DNA from: Candidatus Omnitrophica bacterium UBA1562
Lineage (GTDB): Bacteria; Omnitrophota; Gorgyraeia; Gygaellales; Profunditerraquicolaceae
Direction: 5' to 3'
DNA length: 26,387 nucleotides
NCBI GenBank assembly: GCA_002322525.1
Contig: DCOU01000038.1
Span: forward strand, 1 to 26,387
The notes beneath the pieces are model-generated. The model saw nothing but the letters and a program-made list of their open reading frames with translations. It was not told the DNA's origin and made no database searches. Both the position numbers and the translations under genes were made by a program. Shown here piece after piece: positions 1 to 6,132 of the stretch (its first letter is position 1; each line of letters opens with the position of its first letter).

Positions 1-411
1 ATTATCTATTCTTTTCCCTTTAACTATTCCGCAATGACCATGAGAGGTATATCCACACAGACAAACGTCTGTAATTACAATTAAATCTTTAAATCTTTCC
101 TTTACTGCTCTTACCGCCTTTTGAACAATACCATCCTCTCTATAAGCAGATGAACCTACCTCATCTTTTGTTTTAGGGATTCCGAATAAAAGTATGGACT
201 CTATCCCCGTGCCTTTAGGTATATCTCTAAGTAACTTGTCAATTGAAAAATGATATACGCCGGGCATGGACTTAATGGGCTCTTTTATACCTTTACCTTC
301 CACCACAAAGTAAGGCAAAATAATATTTTTAGGATGAAGTTGGGTTTCGCTTATCCAATCCCGGACAAAGCTTTTTTCTCTTAGTCTTCTTAAGTCTATA
401 ACAGCCTGCAT
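1..411 (-). CDS. hemB: Porphobilinogen synthase (ALA dehydratase), 5' part; runs off the window
   Basis: Not in the ORF track. Manual translation from ATG at 411: MQAVIDLRRLREKSFVRDWISET...PIKSMPGVYHFS...ILLFGIP...DGIVQKAVR...ITDVCLCGYTSHGHCGIV. It has the N-terminal RRLR motif and the Zn-binding CxCx7C motif, and follows cobA-hemD. Confidence 0.95.
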   Translation of the reverse strand, partial: MQAVIDLRRLREKSFVRDWISETQLHPKNIILPYFVVEGKGIKEPIKSMPGVYHFSIDKLLRDIPKGTGIESILLFGIPKTKDEVGSSAYREDGIVQKAVRAVKERFKDLIVITDVCLCGYTSHGHCGIVKGKRIDN

Positions 412-1919
412 CTTTTGGCCTCTCTTAGAGTAACTTTGCCTATACATCTAACTTTTACATTTTTGGGCACCTTTTTATATTTTTTTTTAAAATTCCTTAC
501 CGTTGAAGGGCTGGTAAACATAATCTCATCAAAGGTATTCAAGTCTAAGTCTGGCAAATCCTTGGGTATTACATTTCTATAAGCAAAACTGGTAGTTATT
601 TTTGCTCCTAATCTTTTGAATGCCTTCTCCAAACCCTTATCCGAAATATCCGAACGGGGCAAAAATATCCTCTTGCCTCTTATATCTAAGCTCTTAAATT
701 CCCTAACCAAGCCTTCCGAGGACTCTTTCTGGGGTAGCAAATCCGCTATAATTCCAAAGCCCAAGAGTCTATTTTTTGTAGAATTCCCGATAGCCGCAAT
801 CTTTATGCCAGCAAGTATTCTTGAATCATAGCTTATCGCACTTAATCTCTTAAAGAAGTATTCGACTGCATATCTGCTTACAAAGACTATCCAATCAAAA
901 TTTCTAATGTCTTTTAAATAATTATCAAATTCCTTATAGTCATCTAAGGGCTCGATCTTAATTAAAGGAAGATAAAAATAAGTGCCTCTTATAAAAAATC
1001 TTTCCTGCGACAGGCCAGTAAACAAAATTCTTTTGTTTTTCTTAAGCCAATTAAATTCTTTCTCTAACTTTACCCCGTTAGAGATACATTTGGCTGAAAC
1101 TAATTTACGGTCACCTGAAGGTGACCTATCTCTAACGGGGTTTACTACTTTGCCAACAATAACTATTGCCGGCGGCTTTAAACTTTGCTCTTTGGCCTTT
1201 TGCGCAATATCTTTTAAGGTGCCGATTAAAATTCTCTGGGTTATTAAACTGGCATTCTCGACTATCGCCACCGGTGTATTCTCATCCTTTCCTGCACCAA
1301 GTAAACGGGAAACTATTTCATCCAAATTCTCTACTGCCATATATAAAACTATGGTGCCAATTTTTGCTATGCTTTCCCAGTTAAGTAAACTTTCTTTCTT
1401 TATCGGTTCCTCATGGCCGGTAACAAAAACACAACTGGAAGCAAATCTTCTATCGGTCAAAGGAATGCCCGAAAATGCACTTGCGGCACTGGCAGAAGTA
1501 ACTCCTGGCACAATCTCAAATTCTATTTTTTCTTTGGTTAAAGCCTTGAGTTCCTGGGAACACCTGCTAAATATTGTGGGGTCGCCATTCTTTAGCCTTG
1601 CCACCTTTTTCCCTTCTTTAGCTTTCTTAATTATTAAGCTATTTATTTTATCCTGATGCACCAAAAATCCGTTAGAGTATCTTTCTTTACCCCGCCCTTT
1701 ATCAATATACAGCGTCTCTTTGTAGGAAAAAGGGCTGGGTTTACCTAACTTATCGCAACATAATAATTGCGCGCCATCCTTTGCATATTCCAAAAGACTC
1801 CTATCCACGAGGTAGTCATAAATAACCACATCCGCTTCTTTAAGAATATTTAATCCTCTCAGCGTTATTAAGTCAGGCTTTCCGGGACCTGCTCCAACTA
1901 AATAGACTTTGCCTTTCAT
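396..1919 (-). CDS. cobA: Uroporphyrinogen-III C-methyltransferase / uroporphyrinogen-III synthase fusion (CobA-HemD) carrying two in-frame palindromic insertions
   Basis: Methyltransferase motifs VYLVGAGPG, ARLKNGDP, EIVPGVTSA, GIPLTDR, VTGHE and LYM. C-terminal HemD-like region with FDWIVFVS, IAAIG, FLPRS, YRN, FTSPSTV and CIG. Confidence 0.93.
   Translation of the reverse strand: MKGKVYLVGAGPGKPDLITLRGLNILKEADVVIYDYLVDRSLLEYAKDGAQLLCCDKLGKPSPFSYKETLYIDKGRGKERYSNGFLVHQDKINSLIIKKAKEGKKVARLKNGDPTIFSRCSQELKALTKEKIEFEIVPGVTSASAASAFSGIPLTDRRFASSCVFVTGHEEPIKKESLLNWESIAKIGTIVLYMAVENLDEIVSRLLGAGKDENTPVAIVENASLITQRILIGTLKDIAQKAKEQSLKPPAIVIVGKVVNPVRDRSPSGDRKLVSAKCISNGVKLEKEFNWLKKNKRILFTGLSQERFFIRGTYFYLPLIKIEPLDDYKEFDNYLKDIRNFDWIVFVSRYAVEYFFKRLSAISYDSRILAGIKIAAIGNSTKNRLLGFGIIADLLPQKESSEGLVREFKSLDIRGKRIFLPRSDISDKGLEKAFKRLGAKITTSFAYRNVIPKDLPDLDLNTFDEIMFTSPSTVRNFKKKYKKVPKNVKVRCIGKVTLREAKRCRLL
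1073..1140. mobile_element. 68-bp palindromic MITE-like insertion, in frame in cobA-hemD
   Basis: Perfect 14-bp terminal IR CCCCGTTAGAGATA/TATCTCTAACGGGG and internal hairpin GGTCACCT-GA-AGGTGACC. Flanked by TTTA at 1069-1072 and 1141-1144. 68+4=72 nt adds NPVRDRSPSGDRKLVSAKCISNGV; removal restores GKVVKLEKEF. Confidence 0.9.
1690..1739. mobile_element. 50-bp palindromic MITE-like insertion, in frame in cobA
   Basis: IR CCCCGCCCTTT/AAAGGGCTGGG (1 mismatch), flanked by TTTA at 1686-1689 and 1740-1743. 54 nt adds PSPFSYKETLYIDKGRGK; removal gives DKLGKERYSNGFLVHQDKIN. Confidence 0.85.
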
Positions 1920-2596
1920 AATAAAACAACCTCCCGGGAATCAATTACTGAAAGCAAGTTATGCAGATGTAAATCTTCAGCTCTTGCGACAATGGCTAAA
2001 GACCCCTGCCAAGGATGGGGTTTAAGAATCTCAAATGGTATTCTTTGGGAAATCCTATCTTCCAGCCCCAATCTAATCAAACCAGCGGCAGCAATCACAA
2101 TGGTATCTAAGTCTGTTTCATCAAGTATCTTTAATCTCTCCTCGATATTGCCGCGGATATCTATAATCTGAAAATCCTTTCGATAGTTTTTAAGTTGAAT
2201 CTTACGCCTTAAGCTACTTGTCCCTATTTTTGCGCCCACCTTCAGTTCATCAAGGGTTAGATTATTCTTTGAAACCAAGGCATCGTAAGGATCGATGGAC
2301 TTTGTAATGGCCGCGATAAAAAGTCCGGGCGCCAAATTATCCGGCAAGTCCTTTGCGCTATGTACAACAAAGTCAATTTCACCCTTTAAAAGTGCCTCAT
2401 CTATTTCTCGGGTAAAAAAGTCGCTTCCTTCTATTTGCGATATAGGCGTAAACTTATCCTTATCGCCATATGTATCTATACCTATAATCTCTACATTAAG
2501 ATCGGGGTAGAATTTCTTTAAATTGCTTACCACCTCTTCTACCTGCTTAAGCGCAAGAAGGCTGGTTCTGGTTCCAATACGGTAAGTTTTTGCCAT
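1916..2596 (-). CDS. hemC: Hydroxymethylbilane synthase, short form (domains 1-2 only; no domain 3 or cofactor Cys)
   Basis: IGTRxSxLA, GD, FTREID, VHSAKD, GTSSLRR, IRGN and QG motifs are present. It ends at 226 aa before the GGC motif and has no Cys. ATGA overlap with cobA. Confidence 0.9.
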   Translation of the reverse strand: MAKTYRIGTRTSLLALKQVEEVVSNLKKFYPDLNVEIIGIDTYGDKDKFTPISQIEGSDFFTREIDEALLKGEIDFVVHSAKDLPDNLAPGLFIAAITKSIDPYDALVSKNNLTLDELKVGAKIGTSSLRRKIQLKNYRKDFQIIDIRGNIEERLKILDETDLDTIVIAAAGLIRLGLEDRISQRIPFEILKPHPWQGSLAIVARAEDLHLHNLLSVIDSREVVLL

Positions 2597-3579
2597 AATC
2601 TCTCTGCCTTTATTTTTATGACCTCTTCAATTTTCTTTGCTTCTTCTTTCTTTTTCTCAAAGTTCTTCTTTATTACAGTACCTAAATCTTCTAAACAGAA
2701 AAGCTCAACGCCCATTATATCTTTTACTAGAGGCTCAACATTCCTGGGTAAAGCAAGGTCAACTATAAGAAGCCCGTGATTAATAAGGCCTTCTAAAGTT
2801 TCCTTTTTAATAATAAAATGCGGGCTTGCTGTAGCGGTTATGACTACATCCGCCTTTTTCAAAGACTCTCTTAATCTATCGAATCTTACCGCCGCACCAT
2901 TAATCTCACTTGCCAATGCCTTTGCCTTTTCAAAAGTCCGATTAGAAACAAAGATTACGTTGGGCCTTTCTTTTTTTAGGTACTGCAAAACTAATTCGCT
3001 CACCTTTCCTACTCCAATAATTAAAATATTCTTACTCGAGAGGTTACCCAATCGTCCTTTTATAAAATCTAAAGCCAGGCTTCCTACAGAAATTTTACCT
3101 TCAGATATCTTAGTTTCTTTGTGTATCATCTTGGCGAAAGACAGAGCCTGAATAAATGTTTTCCTCAAAAACTCATCAGCAAAACCAATCTCTCTTGCTT
3201 CAAGATATGCCTGTTTAACTTGCCCTGAAATTTGTGTCTCACCAAGAATCAACGAATCTAGGCCGCAGGTAACCGCAAATAAATGCCTAAGTGCTTCTTT
3301 TGCCTCATATGTATAAAGGTAAGGCAAAAAATTTTTTGTCTCAATTTCATGGTATCGCGAAAGAAAATTTATTATCTGGCCTCTTGCACTTTCGAGATTT
3401 TCTGTGCTAGCATAAATCTCCATTCGATTACAAGTAGAAAGAATAACCGCTCCCTTAAATATTTGCCATTCCTTTAAGAGAAAAAGGGCGTTTTTTAGCC
3501 TCTTTTTAGGAAAGACGAGTCTCTCCCTCAATTCAATTGGACTAAACTTGTGATTTGTGCCAACCACTATTAAGTTCAT
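2539..3579 (-). CDS. hemA: Glutamyl-tRNA reductase (short C-terminus)
   Basis: VVGTNHK, LSTCNRME (catalytic Cys), GLDSLILGETQI, IIGVG NAD(P) motif, NRT, TATASPH and DLALPRNV. Confidence 0.95.
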   Translation of the reverse strand: MNLIVVGTNHKFSPIELRERLVFPKKRLKNALFLLKEWQIFKGAVILSTCNRMEIYASTENLESARGQIINFLSRYHEIETKNFLPYLYTYEAKEALRHLFAVTCGLDSLILGETQISGQVKQAYLEAREIGFADEFLRKTFIQALSFAKMIHKETKISEGKISVGSLALDFIKGRLGNLSSKNILIIGVGKVSELVLQYLKKERPNVIFVSNRTFEKAKALASEINGAAVRFDRLRESLKKADVVITATASPHFIIKKETLEGLINHGLLIVDLALPRNVEPLVKDIMGVELFCLEDLGTVIKKNFEKKKEEAKKIEEVIKIKAERLWQKLTVLEPEPAFLRLSR

Positions 3580-3974
3580 TCTATCTTGACTTCCTCTTCG
3601 TTTATTTTTCCCTCAACAATCTTGAAGGACCTTATGCTCGGGTTATCTTTATCCTTTATTGAAGCAATCACGTACGATGCCTCAGGATAAAAAGCCAATT
3701 CTACATCGTGTTCAGATGGATAAGCCTCTGTCTCAAGATGCGAATGATATATCCCCACCATCTCAAGGCCTAAATTACGTATTTCTTTCATCACTTTGAG
3801 CTGTTCTTTCGGGTCCATAAAGAATGAATTTGGGCTTCTATCTGTATTAGCCATCCTATAAATCTTTATAATCCTGCCTTCTTTACCTGCTAATATCCCG
3901 CAGGCCTCATTAGGAAATTCTCTTTTAGAGTGCTCTATCATCTGCTCAAACAAACTTTTTGCAATATAAATCAT
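3576..3974 (-). CDS. JAB/MPN (Mov34, M67) metalloprotease, Mec/HcyD-like sulfur-carrier processing peptidase
   Basis: PNEACGILAG and GIYHSHLETEAYPSEHD (E...HSH-x7-S-x2-D JAMM motif). Confidence 0.88.
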   Translation of the reverse strand: MIYIAKSLFEQMIEHSKREFPNEACGILAGKEGRIIKIYRMANTDRSPNSFFMDPKEQLKVMKEIRNLGLEMVGIYHSHLETEAYPSEHDVELAFYPEASYVIASIKDKDNPSIRSFKIVEGKINEEEVKIE

Positions 3975-4960
3975 TTTTTAACCCCTAAAAGTAAAAGCAT
4001 AGAATAACAAATTATTATACTTAAGACAGGCGTCAGCATCCAAACCTTCAGGATTTTCTTAGTTATAGGGTGAACCAAGGTCTGGCTATGATTTTTCTCC
4101 TCCTTTGCAGTATGTATGGCCAGAATAGACAAAGAGGAAAACTGGACATAGGGCGCAGGAAGACCCAAAACAGAACATGTAATAATAAAAGTGCTGACTA
4201 CCATGGAAACGATTGAGGCCGATATCGTACCCAAAGGAACAATCTCCTTACTTACGGTATTAAGCACTCCTTTGCCTAAAATAAGCCCTCCTAGACCAAA
4301 GAGCAGAGAAAAAATTAAAAAACCCGGTCTTGGACTTACTATATTTGCCGCCATAAGAGGCCCTACGACATTAGCCACATTATTAGTGCCAATACCAAAT
4401 GCGCTATAGAAGTCAGTGAAAAGTGTCCATTTTTTAAGCTTGGCCTCGTGGCAGAAAAATTTTTCATAGAATCTTAAGTTCTTCTGCCGCGGCGGATAAA
4501 TCTTGCGCGCAATAAAATAAGTAAGAAAATACGATAAAAGAGATACACCAACCCAGACAAAAATCAAATACCTGATCAGAGAAAAATTTAAAGATTTGAA
4601 ATATAACCCTGCCCCCACAAAAGAGCTAATGATAATTATGCTTGTTGACTGTGGTATTTTAAGGACGTTTGCCAAAAATAATGCGATACAAGCTGAAAAA
4701 AGAATCACTAAAACCACTGGTTGAGTAATAAGTTCTGGAGCGATAATTTTACTGCTTAATGTCTTTGCAACCCTTCCCCCTACAAGCAACGCCCCTATAA
4801 GCACAAATATAGTAAAGAGAACTACGGCCCTATTTTTTTTAATAATGTTACTTCCCACGCTAGGAGCAAATGACACTGCTAAACCTGAGGCCCCCATGTT
4901 CATCGCCCAAAATATAGAAATAATTATAAGGAGTAATATCTCGATCATTTTCTCACTCAA
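3971..4960 (-). CDS. PiT-family anion permease; probably a sulfate permease (CysP-like) given its context
   Basis: Repeated PiT signatures (AMNMGASG...; GIGTNNVANVVG), multiple TM segments, and position directly after cysH. The start may be the ATG at 4948 instead. Confidence 0.8.
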   Translation of the reverse strand: MSEKMIEILLLIIISIFWAMNMGASGLAVSFAPSVGSNIIKKNRAVVLFTIFVLIGALLVGGRVAKTLSSKIIAPELITQPVVLVILFSACIALFLANVLKIPQSTSIIIISSFVGAGLYFKSLNFSLIRYLIFVWVGVSLLSYFLTYFIARKIYPPRQKNLRFYEKFFCHEAKLKKWTLFTDFYSAFGIGTNNVANVVGPLMAANIVSPRPGFLIFSLLFGLGGLILGKGVLNTVSKEIVPLGTISASIVSMVVSTFIITCSVLGLPAPYVQFSSLSILAIHTAKEEKNHSQTLVHPITKKILKVWMLTPVLSIIICYSMLLLLGVKK

Positions 4961-5679
4961 ATCCCATCACCAGCCACGTTCTTTAGTGGCCGGGTATGGA
5001 TTCCGCATTCGCCGCCGCATTTGCTTGTGCCAATCCAACGGCCAGAGCGTTCGTCTTCTTCGTTAGTAATCCTGGTGCAGGGTGCGCAACCTAAAGACCT
5101 GTAACCTTGTCCGTAAAGAGGATTCACCTTTACTCCGTTGAGAGCCAGGTATTGCCAAACTTCTCTTTCCTTCCAAACAAGAATTGGATTCAGCTTAATC
5201 AAACCTTTATCCCGCTCTTCAACCTCTTTAAAGTCTGTGCGCGTCCTTCCTTCTGTACAACGCAAACCTGTAACCCAGCACTTGACTCCCATCTCTTCAA
5301 TTGCTCTGCGGATAGGTTCTACCTTTAAAATATCGCAGCATTTATCTGGGTCTGTTTCATAAAGTTTATCTGGTATCTCTGCATCGCTTTTATAAATTTT
5401 AATTTCAGGGTATCTAACTACTGTTTCATGCATAAATTGAACAGTCTCTTTTGGTTTAAACCTTGTGGTAATAATAAAACCTCTGATTTTTGGGCTAACT
5501 TTTTTTGCCAGATCCCAGACTGTTACAGAATCCTTGCCCAGACTATTAGCAACTACCAAGCCATCACCATATTTTTCATATGCCTCTTTTGTGAGTGCTA
5601 AGGACCTCTCTACTTTTTGTTTAAAATTCAAAGTTTCTACCAAGCTTTTAATATCATCCTGGTTGTTTAATAAACTCAT
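4957..5679 (-). CDS. cysH: Adenylylsulfate (APS/PAPS) reductase, [4Fe-4S]-type
   Basis: SLGKDS, KCCDILKVEP, WVTGLR, KLNPI, GYRSLGCAPCT, RSGRW and ECGIH. The CC...CxxC ligand set is typical of APS reductases. Confidence 0.93.
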   Translation of the reverse strand: MSLLNNQDDIKSLVETLNFKQKVERSLALTKEAYEKYGDGLVVANSLGKDSVTVWDLAKKVSPKIRGFIITTRFKPKETVQFMHETVVRYPEIKIYKSDAEIPDKLYETDPDKCCDILKVEPIRRAIEEMGVKCWVTGLRCTEGRTRTDFKEVEERDKGLIKLNPILVWKEREVWQYLALNGVKVNPLYGQGYRSLGCAPCTRITNEEDERSGRWIGTSKCGGECGIHTRPLKNVAGDGI

Positions 5680-5694
5680 TTGACTGCTCCCTCC

Positions 5695-6132
5695 TTAAAT
5701 TTGGTAAACAATCGTTTCTTTTTGCGACTTTACCTGTTTGGCTAAATCCTCAAAGGTTATATTGTCGATTATATTCGAAGTACAGCGCGTAACCTCCCGC
5801 CATATGTTCCTAAAAATACATTTATATATATCTTTGCAGCCCGAATAGTTCCGTTCAATGCAAGCTAAAGGTTCAATAGGGCCATCTATAAATCTGACAA
5901 CATCGCCCAGTTTTATTTGCAAAGGTGATTTGACTAAAAGATAACCTCCGACTTTACCCCTGCGACTTTCCACAAATCCGCCCCTTTTTAAATCCAGCAA
6001 CACCTGTTCTAAGAATTTTAGGGGTATATCTGCATGCTTGGCCAGATCATGAATGGTCACTAACTCTCCATAATGCAAGGATAAATCCAAAATTGCCTTT
6101 AATGCGTAGTCTCCTTTGTAGGTTATGTGCAT
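5695..6132 (-). CDS. Rrf2-family transcriptional regulator (IscR/CymR-like, three Cys)
   Basis: DYALKAILDL, LEQVL, VESRRGKVGGYLL, and C-x7-C-x5-C in the C-terminal half. Confidence 0.93.
   Translation of the reverse strand: MHITYKGDYALKAILDLSLHYGELVTIHDLAKHADIPLKFLEQVLLDLKRGGFVESRRGKVGGYLLVKSPLQIKLGDVVRFIDGPIEPLACIERNYSGCKDIYKCIFRNIWREVTRCTSNIIDNITFEDLAKQVKSQKETIVYQI

What the first reader, a model, noticed from the sequence alone, without database searches (positions are those of the whole stretch)
1916..2596. HemC lacking domain 3 and the dipyrromethane-anchoring cysteine
Seen: the protein is 226 aa with no Cys at all and ends before the GGC motif. The catalytic Asp (HSAKD) and the pyrrole-binding Arg residues (GTR, SLRR, IRGN, ERL, IRL) are retained. 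The end looks settled rather than freshly broken, with an ATGA overlap with cobA and the cobA RBS (GGGAGG) inside the last codons. Established: HemC attaches its cofactor covalently to a domain-3 Cys (E. coli Cys242). Inference: either a non-covalent or minimal HMB synthase, a split enzyme with domain 3 encoded elsewhere, or a dead gene in an otherwise intact hem operon.
Basis: partly seen in the sequence, partly recalled or inferred. Interest (0 to 1): 0.72.

Follow-up and report, generated by a model that had tools for sequence, protein, structure and literature searches.

The report
Two-domain HemC without cofactor cysteine
This intact, conserved gene encodes a porphobilinogen deaminase that lacks the whole third domain and the cysteine that hold the built-in cofactor in every studied version of this enzyme. 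It belongs to a large, apparently unstudied bacterial clade that must make its tetrapyrroles by a variant of a textbook reaction.

Summary
Window 1916-2596 (-) encodes a 226-aa HemC with only Pfam PF01379. It aligns to E. coli HemC residues 5-226, has no cysteine, and ends at an ATGA overlap with cobA-hemD.

It is not a fresh break. The same length and stop occur in orthologues of 83-90% identity (dN/dS 0.12-0.20), and all 120 nearest database relatives lack domain 3. About half of the hemC matches in 401 Omnitrophota genomes end before domain 3.

On trees built from domains 1-2 alone, 55 domain-3-less modules form one side of a branch with 98% support. These are free-standing or fused to SirC-HemA, HemA, HemD, CobA-HemD, ArsC-like or HD domains. 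Every residue that contacts substrate or pyrroles in solved structures is invariant in this clade. No cysteine column is shared.

No domain 3 was found in any frame of this genome or of five relatives that are at least 90% complete. A second hemC in the same bin also lacks domain 3 and carries an HD domain instead.

The gene sits in a sulfate-assimilation and siroheme operon that ends in a sulfite reductase.

Best reading: a working two-domain hydroxymethylbilane synthase that does not tether its chain through the canonical thioether. The mechanism is inferred.

This scan has noted the same clade several times on other DNA.

The parts
1916..2596 (-). hemC: 226-aa two-domain hydroxymethylbilane synthase (domains 1-2 only; no domain 3, no Cys)
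   Evidence: PF01379 only. Aligns to E. coli HemC 5-226. AF2 pLDDT 94.7, TM 0.93 to 7ccy_C. dN/dS 0.12-0.20.
2539..3579 (-). hemA: short glutamyl-tRNA reductase (346 aa, no C-terminal dimerisation domain); its last 58 nt overlap the start of hemC
   Evidence: GlutR_N + Shikimate_DH; TIGR01035 positions 2-343 of 416. The overlap is also seen in L023, L024 and C151.
396..1919 (-). cobA-hemD fusion (uroporphyrinogen-III C-methyltransferase + uroporphyrinogen-III synthase), translationally coupled to hemC by an ATGA overlap
   Evidence: TP_methylase 4-238 and HEM4 316-504; junction sequence.
1..447 (-). hemB (porphobilinogen synthase), N-terminal 149 aa. The gene continues on contig C152 of the same assembly.
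   Evidence: ORF list. The window part aligns to HemB of C151 up to residue 150, and the C152 part aligns from residue 150.
3576..3974 (-). Prok-JAB (Mec-like) protein of the sulfur-carrier cysteine pathway, first gene upstream of hemA
   Evidence: PF14464, 96 bits. The same position is seen in C151, L023 and L024.
3971..6132 (-). Head of the operon: Rrf2 regulator (5695-6132), PAPS-reductase-like CysH (4957-5679), PHO4-family permease (3971-4960)
   Evidence: ORFs. Pfam labels are taken from the syntenic loci L024 and L016.

Best explanation
The gene encodes a functional two-domain hydroxymethylbilane synthase. It keeps the complete catalytic cleft of HemC: the Asp83 general acid/base, the Arg/Ser/Lys/Gln set that binds incoming porphobilinogen, and the last two pyrroles of the chain. 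It has no domain 3, no cofactor loop and no cysteine. It takes porphobilinogen from HemB and passes a linear tetrapyrrole to the CobA-HemD fusion encoded by the next, translationally coupled gene. This supplies siroheme for the sulfite reductase at the end of the same operon. A thioether anchor cannot form within this protein. The growing chain is therefore most likely held non-covalently in the arginine-rich cleft under a remodelled lid loop (clade-specific Asp47, Thr50, Asp59, Phe60, Ala81). The primer would be either a free dipyrromethane or the first porphobilinogen itself. The second case would give an aminomethylbilane that is deaminated to hydroxymethylbilane or its azafulvene for HemD. 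Shown: the anatomy, the conservation, the clade and the operon context. Inferred: the enzymatic activity and the non-covalent mechanism.
For: Anatomy: PF01379 only, no Cys, ends at the E. coli 226 equivalent.
Fold: AF2 pLDDT 94.7, pTM 0.89. The model superposes on domains 1-2 of human and E. coli HMBS at TM 0.89-0.93 and rmsd 1.4-2.0 A.
Active site: PMC7959689 Table 2 lists the residues of the substrate site and pyrrole sites 1-2, and all of them lie in domains 1-2. Their window equivalents are R10, S12, Q18, F61, S80, K82, D83, T126, S127, S128, R130, R131, R148, G149, N150, R154, A169, R175 and G198. All are present. Sixteen of them (all but T126, R130 and N150) are kept in 55 of 55 clade members.
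Selection: dN/dS is 0.20 and 0.12 against orthologues of 90% and 83% identity, which have the same stop and ATGA overlap.
Breadth: all 120 nearest relatives lack PF03900. Of 153 representatives of 50%-identity clusters, 70 lack domain 3. The 55 with near-complete domains 1-2 that group together form one bipartition, with 98% support in both FastTree and IQ-TREE (LG+C20).
Fusions with neighbouring pathway steps: SirC-HemA-HemC, HemA-HemC, HemC-HemD, HemC-CobA-HemD.
Replacement pattern: relatives in the same order carry either a full-length or a two-domain HemC in the same operon slot. About half of the hemC matches in 401 Omnitrophota genomes are two-domain.
No domain 3 elsewhere.
Operon: Rrf2-CysH-permease-JAB-HemA-HemC-CobA/HemD-HemB-HemL-ThiS/CysM-SiR.
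No URO-D was found in the genome, which fits a siroheme end product.
Against: No member of this clade has been assayed, so the activity is inferred. In studied enzymes the anchoring cysteine is intolerant to substitution (human C261, bioRxiv 10.1101/2023.02.06.527353). A human truncation lacking domain 3 is pathogenic (PMC10773753). How a two-domain enzyme would retain the chain and stop at four rings is unexplained. The genome is only 74% complete. A very divergent anchor protein supplied by another gene would escape profile searches.
Confidence: 0.6

Rival explanations
1. The enzyme is active and still uses a covalently bound primer, attached to a non-cysteine residue of domains 1-2. Candidates are the clade-specific lid-loop residues (Asp59, Asp47 as esters; Thr50 as an ether).
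For: Asp47, Thr50, Asp59, Phe60 and Ala81 are 89-96% conserved in the two-domain clade and rare in canonical HemC. Position 59 is Gly in 78 of 88 canonical sequences. These residues lie in or next to the active-site lid loop, next to Phe61, which contacts the substrate analogue in 7ccy.
Against: No such linkage is known for any HemC. A pyrrolylmethyl ester would be labile and so a poor permanent anchor. None of these residues is strictly invariant. I could not measure distances because the tools return no model coordinates.
Confidence: 0.12
2. The enzyme is split or assisted. The anchoring thiol comes from another protein (an unrecognisable domain-3 analogue, or a neighbour such as CobA-HemD or HemA) or from a small-molecule thiol.
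For: The two-domain modules are often fused to, or overlap, pathway neighbours. The genome is 74% complete.
Against: PF03900 was not found at E <= 10 in this genome or in four of five relatives at 90-96% completeness. The fifth gave one 11.7-bit chance-level hit. A custom domain-3 profile run at maximum sensitivity on all six-frame segments gave a best E of 0.44, and that hit lies antisense inside a 439-aa ORF. The fusion partners differ (SirC-HemA, HemD, CobA-HemD, ArsC-like, HD), so no single partner is common. Compact operons in near-closed genomes contain no unexplained ORF. The only Cys in the CobA-HemD linker lies in an insert that is absent from the paralogue.
Confidence: 0.13
3. The protein no longer makes hydroxymethylbilane. 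It is an inactive remnant or a porphobilinogen-binding protein with another role.
For: In studied enzymes, loss of the cofactor cysteine or of domain 3 abolishes function.
Against: dN/dS is 0.12-0.20. All catalytic residues are invariant across a clade that reaches down to about 42% identity. No other hemC of canonical type was found in this genome or in high-quality relatives, which nevertheless keep hemA, hemB, hemL, cobA and a siroheme-dependent sulfite reductase in one operon. Canonical and two-domain forms occupy the same operon slot in different relatives.
Confidence: 0.07
4. The short gene results from a recent deletion, a premature stop or an assembly error in this genome.
For: None beyond the short length.
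Against: The identical protein is on 14 contigs. Fifty of the 120 nearest cluster representatives are exactly 226 aa. The same stop and overlap occur in orthologues of 83-90% identity. The clade is deep.
Confidence: 0.01

Closest known systems
Canonical hydroxymethylbilane synthase / porphobilinogen deaminase (HemC/HmbS; E. coli 1PDA/1AH5, human 7CCX/7CCY, B. megaterium 4MLQ; TIGR00212; PF01379+PF03900)
   Same: Domains 1-2 are about 40% identical and superpose at TM 0.89-0.93. Every substrate- and pyrrole-contacting residue of domains 1-2 is kept. The pathway position is the same, between HemB and HemD.
   Different: There is no domain 3, no cofactor loop, no Cys242/Cys261 equivalent and no cysteine at all. 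The lid loop is remodelled (Asp59 replaces the conserved Gly; also Asp47, Thr50). All 17 distinct solved sequences matched by phmmer are 310-389 residues long and extend past the aligned two-domain part.
NCBIfam NF002202 (PRK01066), a 241-position 'hydroxymethylbilane synthase' equivalog that ends where domain 3 would begin. From memory it was built on Chlamydia HemC. ESM Atlas clusters of 202-223 aa carrying PF01379 only are commonest in Chlamydiota.
   Same: The architecture is the same, domains 1-2 only. The window protein aligns to profile positions 20-233 of 241 at 215 bits. Relatives P0247 and P0217, which match this model best, fall in the same clade.
   Different: The window protein scores below that model's cut-off (215 against 251 bits), so it is a sister group and not that equivalog. 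I found no biochemical study of either group.
HemC-HemD and HemC-CobA-HemD fusion proteins
   Same: The same consecutive steps are coupled. Here the coupling is by an ATGA overlap rather than a fusion. In relatives it is a true fusion (P0124, P0125).
   Different: Fusions exist both with full-length HemC (P0137, with PF03900) and with two-domain HemC (P0124, P0125, without it). The fusion partner therefore does not replace domain 3.
Type II periplasmic-binding-protein / LysR effector-domain fold
   Same: After the HMBS structures, the next structural matches are two-lobed binding proteins such as YhfZ and the OxyR, CynR and LAO domains. Without domain 3, the protein reduces to this bilobal core.
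   Different: These matches have TM of only 0.41-0.53 and 11-18% identity, with no catalytic Asp/Arg set. This is a resemblance of fold, not membership.

Membership tests
Canonical three-domain HemC (TIGR00212; PF01379 + PF03900) | Domains 1-2 (PF01379) with the bilobal fold | tested here: met
   PF01379 at 230 bits. AF2 model has TM 0.93 to 7ccy_C.
Canonical three-domain HemC (TIGR00212; PF01379 + PF03900) | Catalytic Asp (E. coli D84) and the Arg/Ser/Lys/Gln pyrrole-binding set | tested here: met
   D83, R10, R130, R131, R148, R154, R175, K82, S80, S127, S128 and Q18 are present.
Canonical three-domain HemC (TIGR00212; PF01379 + PF03900) | C-terminal domain 3 (PF03900) | tested here: not met
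   There is no PF03900 in the protein. TIGR00212 is matched only to position 218 of 293. No domain 3 was found in the genome.
Canonical three-domain HemC (TIGR00212; PF01379 + PF03900) | Cysteine that carries the dipyrromethane cofactor (E. coli C242, human C261) | tested here: not met
   The protein has no Cys. The alignment ends at the E. coli 226 equivalent.
Canonical three-domain HemC (TIGR00212; PF01379 + PF03900) | Hydroxymethylbilane synthase activity | not testable with these tools
   Inferred from operon context and conservation only.
Two-domain HemC clade (PF01379 only; this report's 'clade S') | PF01379-only module that ends within about 15 residues of the end of domain 1 | tested here: met
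Two-domain HemC clade (PF01379 only; this report's 'clade S') | Placement on the two-domain side of the supported branch in a tree built on domains 1-2 | tested here: met
   55 against 88 rows, 98% support in FastTree and in IQ-TREE LG+C20.
Two-domain HemC clade (PF01379 only; this report's 'clade S') | Clade signature residues E21, D47, T50, D59, F60, A81 | tested here: met
   All six are present in the window protein. They are 89-96% conserved in the clade and rare in canonical HemC.
NCBIfam NF002202 (PRK01066) short HemC equivalog | Score at or above the curated cut-off of 251 bits | tested here: not met
   215.1 bits.

The most novel reading that the evidence does not exclude
A large bacterial clade of porphobilinogen deaminases polymerises porphobilinogen with no covalently bound dipyrromethane cofactor. 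The clade covers about half of the hemC-bearing Omnitrophota sampled, plus Chlamydiota-type enzymes and SirC-HemA-HemC fusions. It would use only the two-lobed catalytic core, priming on a free pyrrole and releasing the bilane directly to HemD. The 'universal' self-made cofactor of HemC would then be an addition and not a requirement of the chemistry. In sublineages with no detectable HemD, even ring closure to uroporphyrinogen III would be unaccounted for.
Probability: 0.5. Interest if true: 0.85.

Novelty: new variant of a known kind. Interest (0 to 1): 0.7.

Why it matters
The dipyrromethane cofactor, thioether-linked to a domain-3 cysteine, is a textbook hallmark of hydroxymethylbilane synthase. 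It is treated as essential in the porphyria literature, where C261 is intolerant to change and domain-3 truncations are pathogenic.

A deep, strongly conserved clade lacks that domain and any conserved cysteine. It still sits in complete siroheme operons. This makes a long-accepted mechanistic requirement directly testable with one small, easily expressed protein.

If the clade is active, it defines the minimal catalytic unit of tetrapyrrole chain assembly. It raises the question of how chain length is set without the domain-3 cavity. It also bears on haem synthesis in Chlamydiota.

If the clade depends on a partner, that partner is a new pathway component.

It also matters for annotation. These proteins pass the TIGR00212 cut-off and are named like canonical enzymes.

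Tried and rejected
Stand-alone domain 3:
- PF03900 was searched in six frames of the own genome and found nothing at E <= 10.
- The same search in G001, G026, G031, G033 and G038 gave only one 11.7-bit hit, E 0.57, in G031.
- A custom domain-3 profile built from 54 full-length relatives was run with all filters off on 20,608 six-frame segments. The best hit had E 0.44: a 44-aa segment with a GAGC motif on C120. I rejected it because it lies antisense inside a 439-aa ORF.

Alternative cysteine anchor:
- In the close family, position 171 is Cys in 64 of 120 but Ala in 48, including here.
- In the SirC-HemA-HemC subclade, position 106 is Cys in 23 of 26 but not elsewhere.
- No Cys column is shared across the clade, so this idea was rejected as a general anchor.

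C-terminal partner replacing domain 3:
- The partners differ (ArsC/LMW-PTP-like, HD, HemD, CobA-HemD) and most members have none. Rejected.

Organism names for the SirC-HemA-HemC subclade and for Chlamydia-type sequences:
- Two genome-contig scans gave nothing useful. P0146 returned no relatives. P0247 returned only four canonical HemC loci at 32-35% identity.
- The listing of cluster members gave names only for Omnitrophota members.
- The top 30 Swiss-Prot fold matches were all full length, 301-323 aa.

Literature:
- Six full-text searches found no paper describing a natural HemC without domain 3.
- The MMBR review I tried to open by id is not held.

Other:
- dN/dS against the paralogue on C151 is unusable because synonymous sites are saturated.
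- No complex prediction was run, because I do not claim a specific binding partner.
Full report
**1. The observation**

The minus-strand ORF at 1916-2596 gives a 226-residue protein.
- Pfam finds only PF01379 (residues 6-211, 230 bits) and no PF03900.
- NCBIfam TIGR00212 is matched above its cut-off (246 against 164 bits), but only over profile positions 2-218 of 293.
- phmmer aligns residues 4-225 to E. coli HemC 5-226 of 313, without gaps. The protein therefore stops about 16 residues before Cys242.
- It has no cysteine at all.
- The stop TGA overlaps the ATG of the next gene, a CobA-HemD fusion, and GGGAGG lies 11 nt upstream of that ATG.

**2. Not a break and not an artefact**

- The identical protein is on record from 14 contigs.
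- Orthologues of 90% and 83% identity (P0002 on L023, P0003 on L024) have the same 226 codons. L023 also shows the same ATGA junction. The gene order JAB-hemA-hemC, followed by cobA/hemD and hemB where the contig extends, is the same.
- Nei-Gojobori dN/dS is 0.20 and 0.12 (dS 0.28 and 0.78). The last 40 codons behave like the rest.
- All 120 nearest cluster representatives (65-100% identity) carry PF01379 without PF03900. Fifty of them are exactly 226 aa.

**3. A deep clade of two-domain HemC**

- An exhaustive phmmer search of 1.84 billion representatives returned its 150 best hits. With three further cluster members this gave 153 proteins. Seventy of them end where domain 3 should begin.
- I built a tree from profile positions 1-222 only (143 rows). 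In it, 55 two-domain modules form one side of a branch with 98% support in FastTree. IQ-TREE under LG+C20+F+G4 gives the same split (55 against 88, SH-aLRT 98).
- One row first labelled 'full' (P0196) is in fact also two-domain.
- The clade has two parts:
  - SirC-HemA-HemC fusions of about 700 aa.
  - A group holding the window protein, other Omnitrophota forms, and proteins that match NCBIfam NF002202 best.
- Architectures in the clade are free-standing, HemA-HemC, SirC-HemA-HemC, HemC-HemD, HemC-CobA-HemD, HemC-ArsC-like and HemC-HD.
- ESM Atlas clusters of 202-223 aa with PF01379 only are commonest in Chlamydiota and Omnitrophota.
- In 401 Omnitrophota genomes of at least 85% completeness, 199 have hemC. 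About 101 matches run to profile position 282 or beyond. About as many end at 203-234.
- In the window's own order, 7 genomes have only a full-length HemC and 7 (counting G000) have only two-domain HemC.
- The full-length form occupies the same operon slot, SirC-HemA-HemC-CobA/HemD in L006. This is the pattern expected if the two forms do the same job.

**4. What is kept and what has changed**

- PMC7959689 (Table 2) lists the contacts of the substrate analogue and of the pyrroles in sites 1 and 2 of human HMBS. All of them come from domains 1-2. Domain 3 contributes only Cys261 and Ser262 at site 3, plus intermittent arginine contacts.
- Using the alignment, the window equivalents are R10, S12, Q18, F61, S80, K82, D83, T126, S127, S128, R130, R131, R148, G149, N150, R154, A169, R175 and G198. 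All are present.
- Sixteen of these positions are identical in 55 of 55 clade members.
- No cysteine column is shared across the clade. The close family has Cys or Ala at 171 (64 against 48 of 120). The SirC-HemA-HemC group has Cys at 106 in 23 of 26. The window protein and its paralogue have none.
- Residues that separate the clade from canonical HemC are E21, D47, T50, D59 (Gly in 78 of 88 canonical sequences), F60 and A81. Most of them lie in or beside the active-site lid loop.
- AlphaFold2 with a 60-sequence alignment gives pLDDT 94.7 and pTM 0.89. Only the last three residues are disordered.
- The model matches domains 1-2 of 7ccy_C, 1ah5 and 1pda at TM 0.89-0.93.

**5. Is domain 3 supplied from elsewhere?**

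- PF03900 finds nothing at E <= 10 in the six frames of this genome (74% complete).
- In G001, G026, G031, G033 and G038 (90-96% complete) it finds only one 11.7-bit hit.
- A domain-3 profile built from 54 full-length relatives was run without filters on all stop-to-stop segments of 30 aa or more. Its best hit has E 0.44. That hit is a 44-aa segment lying antisense inside a 439-aa ORF, so it is a chance match.
- The genome does hold a second hemC, on contig C151. It is 71% identical, also lacks domain 3, and continues into an HD domain.
- Compact operons in other genomes contain no unexplained ORF. Examples are L016, and L025 from a two-contig genome.

**6. Context**

- The window starts inside hemB. 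The rest of hemB is at the end of contig C152. The two halves meet at residue 150 of the C151 HemB.
- The full operon reads: Rrf2, CysH-like PAPS reductase, PHO4-family permease, JAB (Mec-like), HemA, HemC, CobA-HemD, HemB, HemL, ThiS-CysM, a NIR_SIR sulfite reductase, a ThrC-like protein and MoeB/ThiF.
- It is a sulfate-assimilation operon with its own siroheme supply.
- No URO-D was found in this genome or in most relatives.
- With a dead HemC, four other tetrapyrrole genes and a siroheme enzyme in this operon would have no purpose.

**7. Mechanism**

Shown: the catalytic cleft is intact and under selection, and there is no thiol in the protein.

Inferred: the enzyme makes a linear tetrapyrrole for HemD without the canonical thioether. 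I consider it most likely (about 0.5-0.6) that the chain is held non-covalently.
- The primer could be a free dipyrromethane.
- Alternatively, the primer could be the first porphobilinogen, which would give an aminomethylbilane. Aminomethylbilanes are enzymically converted to uroporphyrinogens. I take this from memory of Battersby et al. 1982; that paper's title is cited in the reference list of bioRxiv 10.1101/2021.02.09.429727.

Open problems:
- How the chain length is limited to four rings without the domain-3 cavity.
- How the chain is retained between steps.

Rivals:
- A covalent link to a clade-specific Asp or Thr.
- An unrecognised partner or a small thiol.
- An inactive or repurposed protein.

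Against an easy acceptance: in studied enzymes the cysteine is intolerant to substitution, and loss of domain 3 is pathogenic.

**8. Novelty**

- Six full-text searches found no description of a natural HemC without domain 3.
- A 2026 review still describes the conserved cysteine as the attachment site.
- Databases name these proteins 'hydroxymethylbilane synthase' without comment. An NCBIfam equivalog of 241 positions without domain 3 exists.
- Earlier agents of this scan reached the same reading on other genomes. I re-derived it here independently.
- New in this report:
  - the second, HD-fused copy in the same bin;
  - the dN/dS values;
  - the clade signature residues;
  - the mapping of the contact residues;
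  - the phylum census;
  - the IQ-TREE check.

Noticed in passing
G000 contig C151 (locus L001:961-2136:-) against window 1916-2596: The bin holds a second copy of the whole roughly 15-kb sulfate/siroheme operon in the same gene order. Its HemC is 391 aa: domains 1-2 plus a C-terminal HD domain (PF01966). The same fusion appears in another genome (G103) and in P0077. Identity between the two operon copies is mosaic: PHO4 94%, SiR 92%, CysH 87%, HemC 71%, CobA-HemD 64%, HemA 59%, Rrf2 41%. This could be true paralogy, recombination or co-binning of two populations. G038 also has two short hemC copies.
   Followed up: partly
window 2539-2596: hemA and hemC overlap by 58 nt in different frames. 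Overlaps of 49-58 nt recur in L023, L024 and C151. In relatives the two genes are fused (P0123; SirC-HemA-HemC proteins). The overlap could serve translational coupling or occasional frameshift fusion. This was not tested.
   Followed up: no
window 2539-3579 (-): HemA is 346 aa and matches TIGR01035 only to position 343 of 416, so it lacks the C-terminal dimerisation domain. Relatives with a full-length HemC also have a short HemA (345 aa in L006), so the two truncations are not linked.
   Followed up: partly
L014 (G001), L025 (G031:C1:654500-668500), L016 (G041): In a sublineage, the two-domain HemC sits in a compact operon: Rrf2-CysH-SirC-HemA-HemC-CobA-HemB-HemL-SiR. There is no HemD in the operon, and there is no PF02602 match anywhere in genomes at 92-96% completeness, including a two-contig genome. 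Who closes the ring to uroporphyrinogen III in these genomes is unexplained.
   Followed up: partly
window 1-447 and G000 contig C152:11890-12444: The start of the window contig abuts the end of contig C152 inside hemB. C152 carries the rest of the operon: HemL, ThiS-CysM, sulfite reductase, a ThrC-like protein and MoeB. C152 also holds a masked stretch that reads as N.
   Followed up: yes
proteins P0052 and P0112 (homologues of window 1916-2596): Two close homologues carry in-frame inserts of about 30-36 residues inside domain 1, after positions about 31 and about 74. The inserts are low-complexity and rich in Pro and Ser.
   Followed up: no
window protein residue 171 (codon at about 2084-2086, minus strand): This position is Cys in 64 and Ala in 48 of the 120 closest homologues. 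It lies two residues after Ala169, whose backbone NH binds the pyrrole acetate in solved structures. It is probably a neutral buried Ala/Cys exchange, but an alternative anchor in part of the family has not been excluded.
   Followed up: partly
proteins P0007, P0010, P0026, P0051: Some relatives have the two-domain HemC fused at the C-terminus to an ArsC / LMW-phosphatase-like domain with a CX5R motif (348-360 aa).
   Followed up: partly
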